From a virus, in IMG/VR virus record IMGVR_UViG_3300045988_021932, positions 1 through 5,462 of that record: DNA of 5,462 nt; one strand, 5' to 3'. The first letter of the stretch is position 1. Each line of letters begins with the position of its first letter. A program made the position numbers and the translations under genes. Under the pieces are notes generated by a model. That model saw only the letters and a program-made list of their open reading frames with translations, searched no databases and had not been told where the DNA came from. This document shows positions 1,991 through 2,983 of the stretch, piece by piece.

Positions 1991-2174
1991 GGTTACTCCT
2001 TTGGCTGGTTGCCCTCTACTGCGTGATAAATCTTGTCCAGCATGGCCAAGATTTTGCGGATGTTGTTAAACAGCGCGTCAATTTCCTTGAGAGTCAGAGC
2101 GGTTCACCTCTTTCTAAAAGTTATTTTGTATAAATGGTTTTGTAAAATAGCACTTCTGTGCTGTTTAACCTTGG

Positions 2175-2360
2175 TTATTGCTCTACCCAATTTTCCGGGT
2201 CGAGTGCTTCTGTTGTTCCCAGCATCTTTTTTTCGATGCGGTAAATTTTATCTTTGTCGTAATCGTAGCTGTATCTGTACTTTGTTGTTTCATAGCATCC
2301 GTATTGGTACAGTTTTTCAAGTGCTTTTACACTCAGGTGATTCATGGATTTTGCTTTCAT
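2175..2360 (-). CDS. Hypothetical protein, 61 aa, and the first gene downstream of the consensus promoter.
   Basis: The ATG at 2360..2358 is preceded by GAGAGG with an 8-nt spacer. The product is MKAKSMNHLSVKALEKLYQYGCYETTKYRYSYDYDKDKIYRIEKKMLGTTEALDPENWVEQ. The 79-aa version in the ORF track starts at a TTG that lies inside the -35 box, so I use the shorter start. I recognise no family. Confidence 0.6.
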   Translation of the reverse strand: MKAKSMNHLSVKALEKLYQYGCYETTKYRYSYDYDKDKIYRIEKKMLGTTEALDPENWVEQ

Positions 2361-2385
2361 GTTTCTTACCTCTCTTTCTGTTTGC

Positions 2386-2414
2386 ATTATACCACATGTT
2401 TCTTCTTTTGTCAA
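2386..2414 (-). promoter_or_regulatory. Sigma-70/SigA-type promoter with a perfect consensus: -35 TTGACA, 17-nt spacer, extended -10 TGgTATAAT.
   Basis: The minus strand reads ctaTTGACAaaagaagaaacatgTGgTATAATgcaaacag. The -35 box is at 2414..2409, the -10 box at 2391..2386, and the TG at 2394..2393. It is followed by the SD and ATG of the 61-aa ORF. Confidence 0.85.
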
Positions 2415-2418
2415 TAGG

Positions 2419-2436
2419 TTTTTTGAAATTTTTTTT
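2419..2436 (-). promoter_or_regulatory. UP-element-like A/T tract immediately upstream of the -35 box.
   Basis: The minus strand reads AAAAAAAATTTCAAAAAA, ending 4 nt before TTGACA. This resembles the A/T-rich UP-element pattern. Confidence 0.5.
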
Positions 2437-2441
2437 GAGAG

Positions 2442-2481
2442 GTCATGCGCTAGGCGCGGTGCGCCGTACGAAGAGCATGAC
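2442..2481. other. Nested GC-rich stem-loop with an outer stem GTCATGC/GCATGAC and an inner stem GGCGC-ggt-GCGCC.
   Basis: The inverted repeats are 2442..2448 with 2475..2481, and 2453..2457 with 2461..2465. No T-tract follows on either strand, so it is not a canonical terminator. Confidence 0.6.
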
Positions 2482-2522
2482 GTAACTTCTCGGTCCCGAT
2501 CGCCGGATTGCCTTTATTTACT

Positions 2523-2549
2523 TTTTCAACACTTTCAACACTTTCAACA
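2523..2549. repeat. Iteron cluster C: three tandem 9-bp units (T/C)TTTCAACA. On the gene strand these read TGTTGAAAG.
   Basis: TTTTCAACA is at 2523..2531, and CTTTCAACA is at 2532..2540 and 2541..2549. The period is exactly 9 bp. Confidence 0.9.
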
Positions 2550-2551
2550 GG

Positions 2552-2560
2552 TTTTCCACA
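2552..2560 (+). promoter_or_regulatory. DnaA-box-like 9-mer TTTTCCACA, fitting the relaxed consensus TT(A/T)TNCACA.
   Basis: Read directly from the sequence. It sits in a 10-nt direct repeat TCCACAAAAT shared with the perfect box at 2616..2624. Confidence 0.5.
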
Positions 2561-2566
2561 AAATGT

Positions 2567-2586
2567 TGCACAAAGGTTTTTGTGCA
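2567..2586. other. Hairpin TGCACAAA-ggtt-TTTGTGCA (8-bp stem) whose arms each overlap a DnaA-box-like 9-mer.
   Basis: It is a perfect inverted repeat. TGTTGCACA (plus strand, 2564..2572) and ATATGCACA (minus strand, 2581..2589) each differ from TT(A/T)TNCACA at one position. Confidence 0.6.
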
Positions 2587-2596
2587 TATTGCTACA

Positions 2597-2613
2597 CTTT
2601 CAACAATTCAACA
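2597..2613. repeat. Iteron cluster B: two copies of TTCAACA with an 8-bp period.
   Basis: CTTTCAACA is at 2597..2605, and TTCAACA is at 2607..2613. Confidence 0.85.
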
Positions 2614-2615
2614 AG

Positions 2616-2624
2616 TTATCCACA
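2616..2624 (+). promoter_or_regulatory. Perfect consensus DnaA box TTATCCACA.
   Basis: It is an exact 9/9 match to the canonical bacterial DnaA box, located between iteron clusters in the non-coding region. Confidence 0.6.
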
Positions 2625-2683
2625 AAATTATCAACATTAAGATTAACCAAAAAATATCGTTCCAAGGATAAAAATTCATAGTA

Positions 2684-2698
2684 TTCAACATTTCAACA
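2684..2698. repeat. Iteron cluster A: two copies of TTCAACA with an 8-bp period.
   Basis: TTCAACA is at 2684..2690 and 2692..2698. A degenerate copy, aTCAACA, is at 2630..2636. Confidence 0.85.
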
Positions 2699-2702
2699 CC
2701 TT

Positions 2703-2718
2703 CTACTACTACTACTAC
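2703..2718. repeat. Trinucleotide microsatellite (CTA)5, which reads (TAG)5 on the gene strand.
   Basis: The sequence ctactactactactac is read directly from the window. Confidence 0.9.
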
Positions 2719-2752
2719 AACAAGTTATATATAATAGATTATGTTTGCAAAT

Positions 2753-2792
2753 ACACGTGCGTGCGTGCGCGTTTCGCGCGTGCGTGCGCGTG
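2753..2792. repeat. GC-rich alternating purine/pyrimidine element containing a 13-mer direct repeat GCGTGCGTGCGCG (2759..2771 and 2778..2790, 19-bp period).
   Basis: There are 20 nt (2753..2772) and 18 nt (2775..2792) of strict R-Y alternation, separated by tt. The centre forms GCGCG-ttt-CGCGC. Confidence 0.85.
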
Positions 2793-2831
2793 AGCGTAAT
2801 TTAGCTTATGATTTTGCTTCGTACCTCGGTA

Positions 2832-2846
2832 GCCCCTACGAGGGGC
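2832..2846. other. Short GC stem-loop GCCCCT-acg-AGGGGC.
   Basis: It is a perfect 6-bp inverted repeat. An alternative pairing exists, CCTCG (2824..2828) with CGAGG (2839..2843). Confidence 0.5.
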
Positions 2847-2857
2847 GTACACGAAAG

Positions 2858-2895
2858 GGGTCTCCCGTGGCGACAGGAGACCCTTTTTTGTTTTT
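2858..2895 (+). terminator. Intrinsic-terminator-like hairpin GGGTCTCC-(10 nt)-GGAGACCC followed by TTTTTTgTTTTT. It is oriented on the plus strand, antisense to all genes.
   Basis: The 8-bp GC-rich stem is 2858..2865 with 2876..2883, and the T-tract is 2884..2895. On the gene strand the same hairpin is preceded by an A-tract and followed only by CTTTCG. Confidence 0.6.
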
Positions 2896-2937
2896 ATGAT
2901 GCTTTTAATTAGCCGTGGATAGCTGTGAAACTTGGGT

Positions 2938-2974
2938 GTGGGCCTAATCCTTATCTTGATAGGATTAGGCCCAC
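2938..2974. other. Perfect 14-bp stem-loop GTGGGCCTAATCCT-(9 nt)-AGGATTAGGCCCAC, located 9 nt downstream of the Rep stop codon.
   Basis: The inverted repeat is 2938..2951 with 2961..2974, and the loop is tatcttgat. No U-tract follows on the gene strand. Confidence 0.8.
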
Positions 2975-2983
2975 TGACACCAT

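What the first reader, a model, noticed from the sequence alone, without database searches (positions are those of the whole stretch)
2415..2983. Oversized, densely structured non-coding region in an otherwise maximally compact genome
About 570 nt, roughly a tenth of the genome, has no convincing ORF on the gene strand, while most coding genes overlap or abut. The region contains iterons, DnaA boxes, an AT-rich tract, a microsatellite, a GC-rich alternating repeat and four stem-loops. Iterons plus DnaA boxes plus an AT-rich segment is the architecture of iteron-controlled theta-plasmid origins. Iterons beside stem-loops is also how CRESS-DNA virus Reps recognise their origins. I do not know of either arrangement in Microviridae, where the phiX174 origin lies inside gene A. 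This region is my best candidate for an undescribed replication-control or complementary-strand-origin module.
Basis: partly seen in the sequence, partly recalled or inferred. Interest (0 to 1): 0.75.

Follow-up and report, generated by a model that had tools for sequence, protein, structure and literature searches.

The report
Host replication-origin copy in a microvirus
The large non-coding stretch of this small single-stranded-DNA gut phage holds a close copy of the DNA-opening module of its likely host's chromosomal replication origin (DnaA boxes, DnaA-trios, AT-rich tract), which I found no paper describing for this virus family and which suggests that the phage recruits the host's master replication initiator.

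Summary
About 570-620 nt (11% of a 5,385-nt circular gokushovirus genome) is non-coding, with no conserved ORF and no Rfam match.

The "iterons" are ten same-strand 9-mers of consensus TTTTCAACA, including one perfect TTATCCACA. The "microsatellite" (CTA)5 follows the last two boxes after a 4-nt gap and precedes an 82% AT tract. This 9+8+4+trios+AT layout is that of the bacterial basal unwinding system (BUS: DnaA-box pair, DnaA-trios, unwinding element) of Firmicutes oriC.

A genome scan found the same box type, the same box offsets (within 1-2 nt) and collinear similarity over about 200 nt in the dnaA-dnaN intergenic regions of Oscillospiraceae and Ruminococcus gut MAGs.

- The module occurs in well over 100 gut gokushovirus genomes.
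- It is far better conserved than Rep (84% nt against 44% aa).
- A natural deletion variant keeps only the minimal BUS.
- Three genomes carry the module inverted.
- Chp2, phiMH2K and SpV4 lack it.

Best reading: a captured host-oriC module that binds host DnaA on the double-stranded replicative form. The iteron-plasmid and CRESS readings are not supported. A second element, a hairpin next to the VP4 stop with an invariant CTTGATAG loop and covarying stems, is a candidate Rep site. No paper in the searched library describes any of this.

The parts
2386..2414 (-). Sigma-70-type promoter (TTGACA, 17 nt, TATAAT, with upstream TG). It drives the single minus-strand transcription unit away from the non-coding region.
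   Evidence: 12 of 12 consensus positions, the only such site in the window. It resembles promoters of Enterococcus and Bacillus phages (H85-H94).
2415..2440 (.). A/T tract (81% AT) directly upstream of the -35 hexamer. It looks like an UP element.
   Evidence: The UP-element function is inferred.
2441..2481 (.). Two-tier hairpin (GTCATGC...GGCGC-GGT-GCGCC...GCATGAC). It is specific to the phages and nearly invariant where present. Its function is unknown.
   Evidence: Fold z -2.2 to -2.6. An exact 26-nt motif occurs in 81 IMG/VR contigs at a fixed 259-262 nt (less often 250 or 278-280 nt) from the trios. It is invariant in about 60% of 114 relatives and absent in the rest, including KT264799. 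Host oriCs have no counterpart.
2523..2560 (+). Distal DnaA-box cluster of four boxes at 2523, 2532, 2541 and 2552: TTTTCAACA, CTTTCAACA, CTTTCAACA, TTTTCCACA.
   Evidence: It aligns with the distal double box TTTCAACAGGTTTTC[A/C]ACA of Oscillospiraceae oriCs.
2564..2590 (.). Hairpin (TGCACAAA / TTTGTGCA) whose two arms are DnaA-box-like (TGTTGCACA on +, ATATGCACA on -). It is inserted in the phage relative to host oriCs. Its function is unknown.
   Evidence: Fold z about -3; box matches; absent from host oriCs in alignment A2. Some relatives have other hairpin sequences at this place.
2597..2636 (+). Middle DnaA-box cluster of four boxes at 2597, 2605, 2616 and 2628, including the perfect TTATCCACA at 2616-2624.
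   Evidence: Their offsets from the first trio (-106, -98, -87, -75) match host oriCs (-107/-97/-98, -86/-87, -76).
2637..2681 (.). Spacer, 76% AT, variable in sequence and about 45-50 nt long in both phages and host oriCs.
2682..2702 (+). Trio-proximal tandem box pair TATTCAACA (9 nt) + TTTCAACA (8 nt), then the 4-nt gap CCTT. This is the counterpart of DnaA-box#6/#7 and the GC gap of the BUS.
   Evidence: Same 9+8+4 layout as B. subtilis, S. aureus and B. halodurans in Table S1 of PMC8287927. Consensus of 114 relatives: TTTTCAACA|TTTCAACA|CTCC. Offsets -21 and -13, as in host oriCs.
2703..2717 (-). DnaA-trio array: (CTA)5 on the + strand, which is 5'-TAG-3' (3'-GAT-5') x5 on the minus strand, the strand that DnaA would bind as ssDNA.
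   Evidence: C. difficile has CACCTACTACTATTACTACTATGA. Present in at least 82 of 86 genomes found through the independent hairpin motif and in 67 of 80 found through Rep.
2718..2752 (.). Phage-specific conserved CAACAAGTTAT followed by an AT-rich tract (82% AT). This is the presumed unwinding element (DUE).
   Evidence: CAACAAGTTAT is at least 90% conserved in relatives, but part of it lay in the pattern used to retrieve them. It is absent from host oriCs. It moves with the module in the inverted genomes.
2753..2797 (.). GC-rich alternating purine-pyrimidine direct repeat (two 17-mers 19 nt apart). It is conserved in most relatives and its function is unknown.
   Evidence: As a hairpin it folds no better than shuffles. 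It keeps its orientation when the box/trio module is inverted.
2856..2887 (.). GC-rich hairpin with T runs on both sides. It looks like a bidirectional intrinsic terminator and probably ends the VP4 transcript before the origin module.
   Evidence: z -2.9 to -3.9. The terminator function is inferred.
2938..2983 (.). 14-bp perfect hairpin beside the VP4 stop, with loop TATCTTGAT on the + strand, followed by TGACACC. It is a candidate site recognised by Rep or by another protein.
   Evidence: Fold z about -7.6. In 107 of 132 clade genomes a hairpin here carries CTTGATA(G) in its loop on at least four unrelated, mutually compensating stem families. Its orientation relative to VP4 is fixed even where the oriC-like module is inverted. 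Chp2 has a 14-bp hairpin with loop TCTACTTGAT, but on its coding strand.

Best explanation
The core of the non-coding region (about 2523-2752) is a phage-borne copy of the DnaA-dependent opening module of the host's chromosomal origin. The host is probably an Oscillospiraceae or Ruminococcaceae-type Clostridium.

The module has ten co-oriented DnaA boxes in three clusters. The last two form a tandem pair that is followed, after 4 nt, by five DnaA-trios and an AT-rich unwinding element.

Proposed mechanism, acting on the double-stranded replicative form:
1. Host DnaA-ATP binds the boxes.
2. The proximal pair directs a DnaA oligomer onto the trio strand.
3. The duplex opens at 2718-2752.
4. The host's own helicase-loading and priming machinery then gains entry to phage DNA.

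This would give the phage a replication start that needs no Rep. It could serve early amplification of the replicative form, or cell-cycle-coupled episomal maintenance. Soaking up DnaA would be a side effect.

The flanks are ordinary: terminators and a conserved-loop hairpin on the VP4 side, and one strong promoter on the other side, so that transcription does not cross the module.

Shown here: the anatomy, its match to the published BUS rules, its match to real oriCs next to dnaA and dnaN, its conservation, its survival in a deletion variant, and its independence of orientation. Inferred: DnaA binding, unwinding, and what follows from them.
For: 1. Layout. The window + strand reads TATTCAACA|TTTCAACA|CCTT|(CTA)5|AT-rich. 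B. subtilis reads TTATCCACA|AATCCACA|GGCC|CTACTATTACTTCTACTA|TTTTTTATA, and other Firmicutes have the same 9+8+4+trios layout in the same orientation (C. difficile).

2. Host match. A genome scan for TTCAACA-N4-CTAYTACTAC returned about 40 BUS-like loci, most of them from Clostridia gut or rumen MAGs.
- In L190 the upstream ORF is DnaA by Pfam; in L195 the flanking ORFs are DnaA, DnaN and RecF.
- The same gene order is seen in other loci.
- None of the 120 loci encodes VP1 or VP4.

3. Box type. These oriCs use TTTTCAACA-type boxes in dense clusters mixed with TTWTCCACA. The 9-mer repertoire is the same in 114 phage cores and 7 host oriCs.

4. Geometry. Box offsets from the first trio are shared within 1-2 nt: -98/-97, -87/-86, -76/-75, -21/-22 and -13.

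5. Collinear similarity. A profile of the phage cores aligns nearly end to end (about positions 10-209 of 210) with Oscillospiraceae oriCs at E 4e-15 to 3e-11. A profile of the distal part alone still hits them. The alignment is A2.

6. Constraint from a host factor. The core is 84% identical in nucleotides between phages whose VP4 proteins are 44% identical.

7. Natural deletion. KT264799 keeps only the box pair, trios, AT tract and the VP4 hairpin. This corresponds to the published minimal functional module of box#6/7 plus trios.

8. Box interchange. MG945157 has TTTTCCACT|TTTCCACA at the proximal pair. More than 100 further microvirus-size loci match the canonical-type pattern TTCCACA-N4-trios.

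9. Inversion. Three genomes carry the whole module inverted, which fits an element that acts on dsDNA.

10. Statistics. TTTTCAACA: 11 matches against 1.6 expected, 0 of 200 shuffles reaching 11. A box with at most 3 mismatches followed by at least 5 trios arises in 3 of 300 shuffles.
Against: - No experiment. DnaA binding and unwinding are inferred from sequence alone.
- The window's own two proximal boxes have 3 mismatches each to TTATCCACA. They fail the published rule of at most 2 mismatches unless the host-type box TTTTCAACA is taken as the standard.
- The host is inferred, not shown.
- Most phage sequences were retrieved with patterns that include the trios or the hairpin, which inflates the apparent conservation of those columns. 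The blastn hits and the Rep-ascertained set are the independent samples.
- The host loci were retrieved with a 17-base pattern, so E-values over the last roughly 20 positions are circular.
- A rolling-circle phage with its own Rep has no known need for DnaA.
- From memory, B. subtilis oriC plasmids need both DnaA-box regions to replicate autonomously.
- Pure DnaA titration would also explain a box cluster.
- The conserved CAACAAGTTAT, the 2441-2481 hairpin and the GC-rich repeat are not explained by this model.
Confidence: 0.6

Rival explanations
1. DnaA sink. The module exists mainly to titrate host DnaA onto many copies of the replicative form. This would block or retime host chromosome initiation, or derepress DnaA-controlled genes, and would start no DNA synthesis on the phage.
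For: Ten DnaA-type boxes per genome on a multicopy replicon. The B. subtilis box regions are named incA, incB and incC because copies on plasmids disturb initiation; this is from memory, and the incC naming appears in PMC6669920.
Against: A sink needs boxes only. Here the trios, the 4-nt gap and the AT tract are kept in exact register. The natural deletion variant KT264799 discards eight boxes and keeps only the two weak proximal boxes with the trios, which is the opposite of what a sink predicts.
Confidence: 0.2
2. Complementary-strand origin. On the incoming single strand the (TAG)5 run and nearby hairpins recruit DnaA, a primosome or RNA polymerase to prime second-strand synthesis. This would resemble the DnaA-box hairpin 'A site' / ABC primosome, the phiX174 n' site, or the sso of rolling-circle plasmids.
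For: In 64 of 67 genomes the trio strand is the coding-sense strand, which is presumed to be the packaged one. A phage-specific hairpin at 2567-2586 has DnaA-box-like arms. Conserved intergenic hairpins are the usual candidates in microviruses (PMC9865509).
Against: Three genomes carry the whole box/trio module inverted while the rest of the region keeps its orientation. DnaA boxes need duplex DNA, and all ten are co-oriented, so they cannot pair with each other. The 2567-2586 hairpin is replaced by unrelated sequences in some relatives, and the 2441-2481 hairpin is missing in KT264799.
Confidence: 0.08
3. Rep (VP4) origin of the CRESS / pMV158 type. The 9-mers are iterons bound by the phage's own HUH Rep, which then nicks a neighbouring hairpin.
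For: Direct repeats lie beside hairpins. A hairpin with an invariant loop and covarying stems sits beside the VP4 stop.
Against: The same 9-mers are kept by phages whose Reps are 44% identical. They also fill host dnaA-dnaN regions that encode no VP4. The distance and orientation between the boxes and the conserved-loop hairpin vary: about 64 to 250 nt, and inverted in three genomes.
Confidence: 0.04
4. Iteron-controlled theta-plasmid origin acquired from a plasmid.
For: Repeats, DnaA boxes and an AT-rich tract together give a superficial resemblance.
Against: No plasmid-type initiator gene is present. The repeats are 9-mers identical to the DnaA boxes. Nothing in 72,556 plasmids matches beyond 35-nt chance hits. 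The trio array belongs to chromosomal origins.
Confidence: 0.03
5. Homology patch for recombination with the host oriC (integration or marker exchange); or recently captured, functionless host DNA; or a hidden ORF or non-coding RNA.
For: About 200 nt of collinear similarity to host oriCs.
Against: Identity to any host found is only about 60-70%, too low for efficient homologous recombination. No microvirus genes lie next to any of the 120 genomic hits. The module is conserved across well over 100 diverged genomes and is retained in the most compact ones. There is no Rfam match, no conserved open frame and no Pfam match.
Confidence: 0.05

Closest known systems
Bacterial chromosomal origin basal unwinding system (BUS: DnaA-box#6/#7 + DnaA-trios + AT-rich element; B. 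subtilis incC; Richardson 2016/2019, Pelliciari 2021)
   Same: Tandem 9+8-nt boxes, a 4-nt gap, at least 5 CTA (3'-GAT-5') trios on the correct strand and in the correct orientation, an AT-rich tract next to them, and further box clusters upstream. Box offsets equal those of real Oscillospiraceae oriCs within 1-2 nt.
   Different: It sits in a 5.4-kb ssDNA phage rather than between dnaA and dnaN. The window's proximal boxes are the TTTTCAACA type, with 3 mismatches to TTATCCACA. The phage has added elements: CAACAAGTTAT after the trios, a hairpin within the box cluster, and flanking hairpins. It occurs in either orientation relative to the neighbouring genes.
oriC minichromosomes / oriC plasmids (E. 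coli, Spiroplasma, Mycoplasma vectors); from memory
   Same: A small circle that carries a chromosomal-type DnaA origin and no initiator gene of its own for that origin.
   Different: Those are laboratory constructs. This is a natural virus that also encodes an HUH rolling-circle Rep. Autonomous replication from the module has not been tested.
DnaA-box-containing phage and plasmid origins (P1 oriR, F, pSC101, R6K, RK2); from memory
   Same: They use host DnaA boxes and an AT-rich region.
   Different: Those depend on their own iteron-binding Rep and use one to a few DnaA boxes as helpers. Here there is no such Rep, the repeats are the DnaA boxes themselves, and a DnaA-trio array is present.
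phiX174 origin (CAACTTG|ATATTAATAAC... inside gene A) and microvirus intergenic hairpins
   Same: The hairpin beside the VP4 stop carries CTTGATA(G) in its loop, which shares 7-8 nt with the phiX174 cleavage site. Hairpins with a conserved loop and compensating stems are reported in other Microviridae (PMC9865509), and Chp2 has one with loop TCTACTTGAT.
   Different: Over 20 nt the resemblance is at chance level (13 of 20). In this clade the motif lies on the strand opposite to the genes, whereas in Chp2 it lies on the coding strand. No nicking data exist.

Membership tests
BUS (DnaA-box + DnaA-trio basal unwinding system) | A DnaA box with at most 2 mismatches to the standard motif (TTATCCACA, or the species-specific motif) within 0-16 nt of the trios | tested here: inconclusive
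   The window's proximal boxes TATTCAACA and ATTTCAACA have 3 mismatches each to TTATCCACA, so a strict scan finds nothing. They have 1 mismatch to TTTTCAACA, the dominant box of Oscillospiraceae oriCs. Relatives such as MG945157 carry TTTTCCACT|TTTCCACA, which meets the rule.
BUS (DnaA-box + DnaA-trio basal unwinding system) | A second, tandem box (at most 4 mismatches) abutting the first; spacer at most 16 nt (commonest 12-13) with a gap of about 4 nt | tested here: met
   9+8-nt boxes and the gap CCTT (consensus CTCC) give a spacer of 12, as in B. subtilis, S. aureus and B. halodurans.
BUS (DnaA-box + DnaA-trio basal unwinding system) | At least 3 consecutive trios with a central A on the strand complementary to the box strand (consensus 3'-GAT-5'), in the correct orientation relative to the boxes | tested here: met
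   (CTA)5 at 2703-2717, on the same strand as the boxes and 3' of them.
BUS (DnaA-box + DnaA-trio basal unwinding system) | An AT-rich unwinding element directly after the trios | tested here: met
   2719-2752 is 82% AT.
BUS (DnaA-box + DnaA-trio basal unwinding system) | DnaA-ATP binds the boxes, oligomerises on the trios and separates the strands | not testable with these tools
   This needs purified DnaA and strand-separation or nuclease assays.
Chromosomal oriC | Located on the chromosome, typically beside dnaA and dnaN, as the cell's own origin | tested here: not met
   The element lies in a 5,385-nt gokushovirus between VP4 and a promoter. The homologous host elements do lie between dnaA and dnaN.
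Iteron-controlled theta-plasmid origin | A replicon-encoded initiator (Rep) that binds 17-22-bp iterons | tested here: not met
   Only the HUH VP4 is encoded. The repeats are 9-mers equal to DnaA boxes. No plasmid is homologous.
CRESS / rolling-circle-plasmid type origin (iterons + nick hairpin) | Iterons specific to the cognate Rep and adjacent to the nick hairpin | tested here: not met
   The boxes are unchanged between Reps of 44% identity and are present in host chromosomes. The spacing and orientation to the conserved-loop hairpin vary.
CRESS / rolling-circle-plasmid type origin (iterons + nick hairpin) | A hairpin that presents a conserved nick motif in its loop | tested here: inconclusive
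   The hairpin at 2938-2974 has an invariant loop motif CTTGATA(G) and compensating stems in 107 of 132 genomes. Nicking has not been tested, and the motif lies on the non-coding strand.
phiX174-type origin | The 30-nt sequence CAACTTGATATTAATAACACTATAGACCAC (from memory) | tested here: not met
   The best matches are 13-14 of 20, equalled at unrelated sites in this genome and in three other gokushovirus genomes.
Single-strand (complementary-strand) origin | Strand-specific and orientation-dependent relative to the packaged strand | tested here: not met
   For the box/trio module, three genomes carry it inverted. For the flanking hairpins the question stays open.

The most novel reading that the evidence does not exclude
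This abundant clade of gut gokushoviruses has two replication systems. One is the usual Rep-driven rolling circle. The other is a captured, invertible oriC cassette that lets the double-stranded form replicate as a DnaA-dependent minichromosome coupled to the host cell cycle. That would give a small 'lytic' ssDNA phage a plasmid-like carrier state with no integrase, and it would name Oscillospiraceae as the hosts. If the conserved CTTG|ATA loop is in fact the Rep nick site, the packaged strand in this clade would also be antisense to all of its genes.
Probability: 0.25. Interest if true: 0.9.

Novelty: new variant of a known kind. Interest (0 to 1): 0.8.

Why it matters
- Replication. Microviruses are textbook rolling-circle replicons thought to need only their Rep plus host elongation factors. 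A conserved module for the host's initiator in 11% of a 5.4-kb genome implies a dependence on DnaA, or a manipulation of it, that I found no paper describing for them.
- Hosts. Human, pig and primate gut gokushoviruses are abundant and uncultured, and the records found here name only the animal or faecal source. The box type and geometry point to Oscillospiraceae or Ruminococcaceae, which gives a concrete target for culture and for CRISPR-spacer searches.
- Origin biology. The phages amount to a natural mutagenesis series of the basal unwinding system: box swaps, a minimal variant and inversions, across well over 100 genomes. They also show that TTTTCAACA is a working DnaA-box type in a large clade of Clostridia.
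- Persistence. If the module supports theta replication, it offers a mechanism for the long-term persistence of microviruses in gut communities.

Tried and rejected
- phiX174-like origin at CAACAAGTTATATATAATAG: 13 of 20 identities, no better than unrelated sites in this genome, Chp2, phiMH2K and SpV4. Rejected.
- Known RNA families: no match in the window at E <= 1.
- Hidden ORFs: no frame is conserved and Pfam finds nothing. The + strand stretches without stops come from the stop-free 9-mer repeat.
- Plasmid origin: no plasmid homology.
- Prophage or mis-binned phage as the source of the genomic hits: no VP1 or VP4 in any of the 120 loci.
- A general gokushovirus feature: Chp2, phiMH2K and SpV4 have no BUS.
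- Covariation in the 2441-2481 hairpin: none can be measured, because it is either invariant or absent.
- The GC-rich repeat as a hairpin: it folds no better than shuffles. Its GCGCGTG units recall the Lactococcus Chi site (from memory); I did not pursue this.
- Hits of the trio pattern in large viral contigs: these are Thr-rich coding repeats, that is, chance.
- XerCD/dif-like site around 2725-2750: only a loose resemblance by eye, not pursued.
- ssoA-like CS-6 (TAGCGC in the 2441-2481 hairpin): recalled from memory only, with no supporting match.
Full report
**1. What the window is**

The 5,462 bases are a circular genome of 5,385 nt with a 77-nt terminal redundancy. All recognisable genes lie on the minus strand. 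PHROGs identifies:
- VP1, the major capsid protein (E 8e-222), which runs across the junction;
- VP2, the pilot protein;
- VP4, the replication initiator (E 7e-104; 4006 to 2984);
- VP3;
- a VP5-like DNA-binding protein.

The nearest GenBank phages are faecal gokushoviruses from humans, pigs, dogs and monkeys, at 78-85% identity over about 85% of the genome.

**2.

Between the VP4 stop (2984) and the next gene there is no convincing ORF. The listed 79-codon ORF starts at a TTG that lies inside a perfect sigma-70 promoter on the minus strand: 2414..2386, TTGACA-17-TATAAT with an upstream TG, the only 12-of-12 site in the window. The probable start is the ATG at 2360. The non-coding stretch is then 623 nt, 11.6% of the genome.

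Three results argue that it is non-coding:
- Rfam finds nothing.
- Pfam finds nothing in the five small ORFs.
- No reading frame stays open across the core in 114 relatives.

- Repeated 9-mers: TTTTCAACA with at most 1 mismatch gives 11 matches against 1.6 expected. Eight of them lie within 176 nt, all on one strand.
- Two exact matches to TTWTNCACA, one of them a perfect TTATCCACA.
- (CTA)5.3.
- An 82% AT tract and a 71% GC alternating repeat.
- Hairpins, of which four fold clearly better than shuffles.

**3. The region is conserved, and better conserved than the genes**

blastn against 50,697 phage records finds the region in 55 records. Apart from a few hits of tailed phages to the promoter, these are gokushoviruses. 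The part shared most widely is window 2523-2738.

KT264789 shares only 30% of the genome at 74% identity, and its VP4 is 44% identical in protein. Its non-coding core is nevertheless 84% identical over about 390 nt.

Most are 5.2-6.1-kb microviruses, and the distance between the two motifs is fixed at 259-262 nt, less often 250 or 278-280 nt. A consensus of 114 representatives, non-redundant at 95%, shows that the best-conserved blocks are the 9-mers themselves.

**4. What the repeats are**

The last two 9-mers, the 4 nt after them, the CTA repeat and the AT tract read, on the + strand:

TATTCAACA|TTTCAACA|CCTT|CTACTACTACTACTA|CAACAAGTTATATATAAT

The clade consensus is TTTTCAACA|TTTCAACA|CTCC|CTACTACTACGACTA|...

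The published definition of the bacterial basal unwinding system (BUS) has these parts (PMC8287927):
- a DnaA box, often a tandem pair;
- a spacer of at most 16 nt, most commonly 12-13, with a gap of about 4 nt;
- at least three DnaA-trios (3'-GAT-5', which reads CTA on the box strand);
- the unwinding element next to them.

Table S1 of that paper is written 3' to 5'. Converted to the top strand it gives, for B. subtilis, TTATCCACA|AATCCACA|GGCC|CTACTATTACTTCTACTA|TTTTTTATA, and the same 9+8+4 layout for S. aureus and B. halodurans. C. difficile has CACCTACTACTATTACTACTATGA.

The phage element therefore has the register and the orientation of a Firmicutes BUS. The 'microsatellite' is the trio array, and the 'iterons' are DnaA-type boxes.

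**5. The same module in host chromosomes**

About 40 of them have the full look of a BUS: boxes, gap, trios and an AT-rich tract. Most of these come from Oscillospiraceae, Acutalibacteraceae, Ruminococcus and other Clostridia MAGs of gut or rumen origin.

- In L190 the ORF upstream of the match is DnaA by Pfam. In L195 the flanking ORFs are DnaA, DnaN and RecF.
- Other loci show the same gene order.
- None of the 120 loci encodes VP1 or VP4, so they are neither prophages nor mis-binned phage contigs.

In several of these oriCs TTTTCAACA is the dominant box: 16, 10, 9, 9 and 8 copies of its TTCAACA core in the 300 nt before the trios. It clusters between dnaA and dnaN, and in some loci upstream of dnaA, intermixed with TTWTCCACA.

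The 9-mer repertoire of 114 phage cores is TTTTCAACA > CTTTCAACA > TTTTCCACA > ATTTCAACA and so on. There are 978 boxes on one strand against 31 on the other. The repertoire of seven host oriCs is the same.

Box positions relative to the first trio coincide within 1-2 nt:
- phage: -106, -98, -87, -75, then -21, -13;
- hosts: -107/-98/-97, -87/-86, -76, then -22/-21, -13.

A profile built from the phage cores aligns nearly end to end (about positions 10-209 of 210) with Oscillospiraceae oriCs at E 4e-15 to 3e-11. A profile of the distal part alone, which excludes the bases used for retrieval, still hits them. Alignment A2 shows the collinearity: a distal double box, a triple box, a variable spacer of about 50 nt, then the box pair, gap and trios.

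The phage-specific additions are:
- the hairpin at 2564-2590 inside the box cluster;
- CAACAAGTTAT after the trios;
- everything left of 2523 and right of 2752.

**6. Natural variants that bear on function**

- KT264799 has a VP4 86% identical to this one and a genome of 5,179 nt. It has lost the 2441-2481 hairpin and the eight distal boxes. In their place stands coding-looking sequence that abuts CATTCAACA|TTTCAACA|CTCC|(CTA)5|CAACAAGTTATATATAAT, followed by the hairpin beside the VP4 stop. What survives is the published minimal functional unit, box#6/7 plus trios (PMC6669920).
- MG945157 has TTTTCCACT|TTTCCACA at the proximal pair. More than 100 further microvirus-size loci match TTCCACA-N4-CTACTACTAY. 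The CAACA and CCACA forms therefore interchange in the phages as they do in the host oriCs.
- Of 80 loci retrieved through Rep similarity alone, 64 carry the module antisense to VP4, 13 show no module (many of these loci end just past VP4), and 3 (L322, L335, L339) carry the whole box + trio + CAACAAGTTATATA segment inverted. In those three the GC-rich repeat and the VP4 hairpin keep their orientation. An element that tolerates inversion acts on duplex DNA, not as a strand-specific signal on the packaged strand.
- Chp2, phiMH2K and SpV4 have no such module. It is specific to this gut clade.

**7. How it most likely works**

- Shown: the anatomy, its fit to the BUS rules, its correspondence to real oriCs, and its conservation, minimal form and invertibility.
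- Inferred: host DnaA-ATP binds the boxes on the replicative form; the proximal pair directs an oligomer onto the (TAG)5 strand; the duplex opens at 2718-2752.
- Consequence I think most likely: host helicase loading and priming on phage DNA, independent of VP4. This could serve to amplify the replicative form before Rep is made, or to maintain it as an episome in step with the host cell cycle.

The layout of the region fits an insulated origin. A hairpin beside the VP4 stop (2938-2974) and a terminator-like hairpin (2856-2887) lie on one side, and the single strong outward promoter lies on the other.

The main rival is DnaA titration. It is weakened by the exact conservation of the trios, gap and AT tract, and by the minimal variant, which throws away most of the boxes.

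Rep-specific iterons are contradicted by the 44%-identity Reps and by the presence of the boxes in host chromosomes. A plasmid-type iteron origin is contradicted by the absence of an initiator gene and of any plasmid homology.

**8. A second element: the hairpin beside the VP4 stop**

The hairpin at 2938-2974 has a 14-bp perfect stem (z about -7.6). On the + strand it carries TATCTTGAT in its loop and is followed by TGACACC.

In 107 of 132 clade genomes the corresponding hairpin presents CTTGATA(G) on at least four unrelated stem families: GTGGGCCTAATCCT, CACTCAGCCAAGTA, AGCCCAGTACCT and AGCCAAGTAC. Within families there are clear double substitutions, for example AGCCCAGTACCT, AGCCTAGTACCT and AGCCAAGTACCT, each with the matching opposite arm. 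That pattern indicates a structure with a loop that is read sequence-specifically.

Chp2 has a 14-bp hairpin with loop TCTACTTGAT in its VP3-ORF8 intergenic region. The motif recalls the phiX174 cleavage site CAACTTG|ATA (from memory). In this clade it lies on the strand opposite to the genes, whereas in Chp2 it lies on the coding strand.

It is a candidate site for Rep nicking or termination, or for second-strand priming. The tools here cannot decide which. Conserved-loop hairpins of unknown role have been noted in other Microviridae (PMC9865509).

**9. Unexplained parts**

- The 2441-2481 hairpin: nearly invariant where present, dispensable in KT264799.
- The GC-rich alternating repeat.
- The conserved CAACAAGTTAT.
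- The hairpin with box-like arms at 2564-2590.

**10. Comparison with what is known, and novelty**

The element works like a chromosomal BUS and meets its structural criteria. The exception is the mismatch rule for the window's own proximal boxes when these are scored against the E. coli consensus. It is not a chromosomal oriC, because it lies in a phage.

Searches of 8 million full texts found no paper that links Microviridae, microviruses or gokushoviruses with DnaA boxes or oriC, and none that describes DnaA-trios in a phage. I rate it a new variant of a known kind: a host-origin unwinding module carried, conserved and rearranged by a clade of ssDNA phages.

**11. Caveats**

- All functional statements are inferences from sequence.
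- The host assignment is indirect.
- Retrieval by motif inflates the apparent conservation of the motif columns. The blastn set and the Rep-ascertained set are the independent checks.
- The E-values of the phage-host alignments include a circular component over the roughly 20 nt used for retrieval, and a repeat-driven component elsewhere.

Noticed in passing
L310 9090-9360 (IMGVR_UViG_3300045988_095961, a 43.5-kb viral contig): A tailed, temperate-looking virus carries about nine TTTTCAACA boxes, then about 110 nt, then TTTTCAACA|TATA|(CTA)5|AT-rich. The module lies between a tyrosine integrase and two Xre-type HTH genes. Either a second, unrelated phage lineage carries the same Oscillospiraceae-type oriC module, or the contig includes a host oriC flank.
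   Followed up: partly
L322, L335, L339 (IMG/VR gokushovirus contigs): The whole box + trio + CAACAAGTTATATA module is inverted relative to VP4, while the GC-rich repeat and the CTTGAT hairpin keep their orientation. The oriC-like module behaves as an invertible cassette.
   Followed up: yes
L307 (Chlamydia phage Chp2) about 2905-2950: A 14-bp perfect hairpin CTAGCGTATAACAG|TCTACTTGAT|CTGTTATACGCTAG lies in the VP3-ORF8 intergenic region. Its loop motif is the one found in the hairpin beside the VP4 stop in the gut clade, but here it lies on the coding strand.
   Followed up: partly
window 2361-2435: The promoter region resembles intergenic sequences of Enterococcus and Bacillus myoviruses and siphoviruses and of a human-gut phage (77-89% over 36-75 nt, H85-H95). 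Together with the strong GGAGG-type ribosome-binding sites, this fits a Firmicutes host.
   Followed up: no
window 2175-2414: The listed 79-codon ORF begins at a TTG inside the -35 hexamer of the promoter. The likely product is 61 aa from the ATG at 2360. It has no PHROG or Pfam match.
   Followed up: partly
window 1991-2174: A second gap of about 185 nt on the gene strand holds no ORF of 30 codons or more, so the genome is not 'maximally compact' outside the region under study.
   Followed up: no
window 2501-2800: AT skew turns positive and GC skew strongly negative (-0.40) only here; the rest of the + strand is T-rich. The one-strand run of TTTCAACA boxes accounts for this.
   Followed up: partly
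L341 (IMGVR_UViG_3300045988_086966, 8,781 nt): A contig of this Rep clade is about 3 kb longer than usual. Beyond the conserved CTTGAT hairpin after VP4 it carries different, coding-looking sequence instead of the oriC-like module.
   Followed up: no
L373, L374/L379/L457, L391, L398, L437 (larger IMG/VR contigs): Canonical Firmicutes-type BUS sequences (TTATCCACA or TTTTCCACA boxes, gap, CTA trios, AT-rich tract) occur in several large 'viral' contigs. They may be host oriC flanks in prophage calls, or further phage-borne origins.
   Followed up: no
L212 (Mesoaciditoga sp. MAG) 2640-2790: A Thermotogota MAG has ten TTTTCAACA-type boxes and a BUS-like box pair with trios, but they lie beside a groEL-like gene and phosphatase-like ORFs rather than dnaA or dnaN. 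The TTTTCAACA box type is therefore not confined to Clostridia.
   Followed up: no
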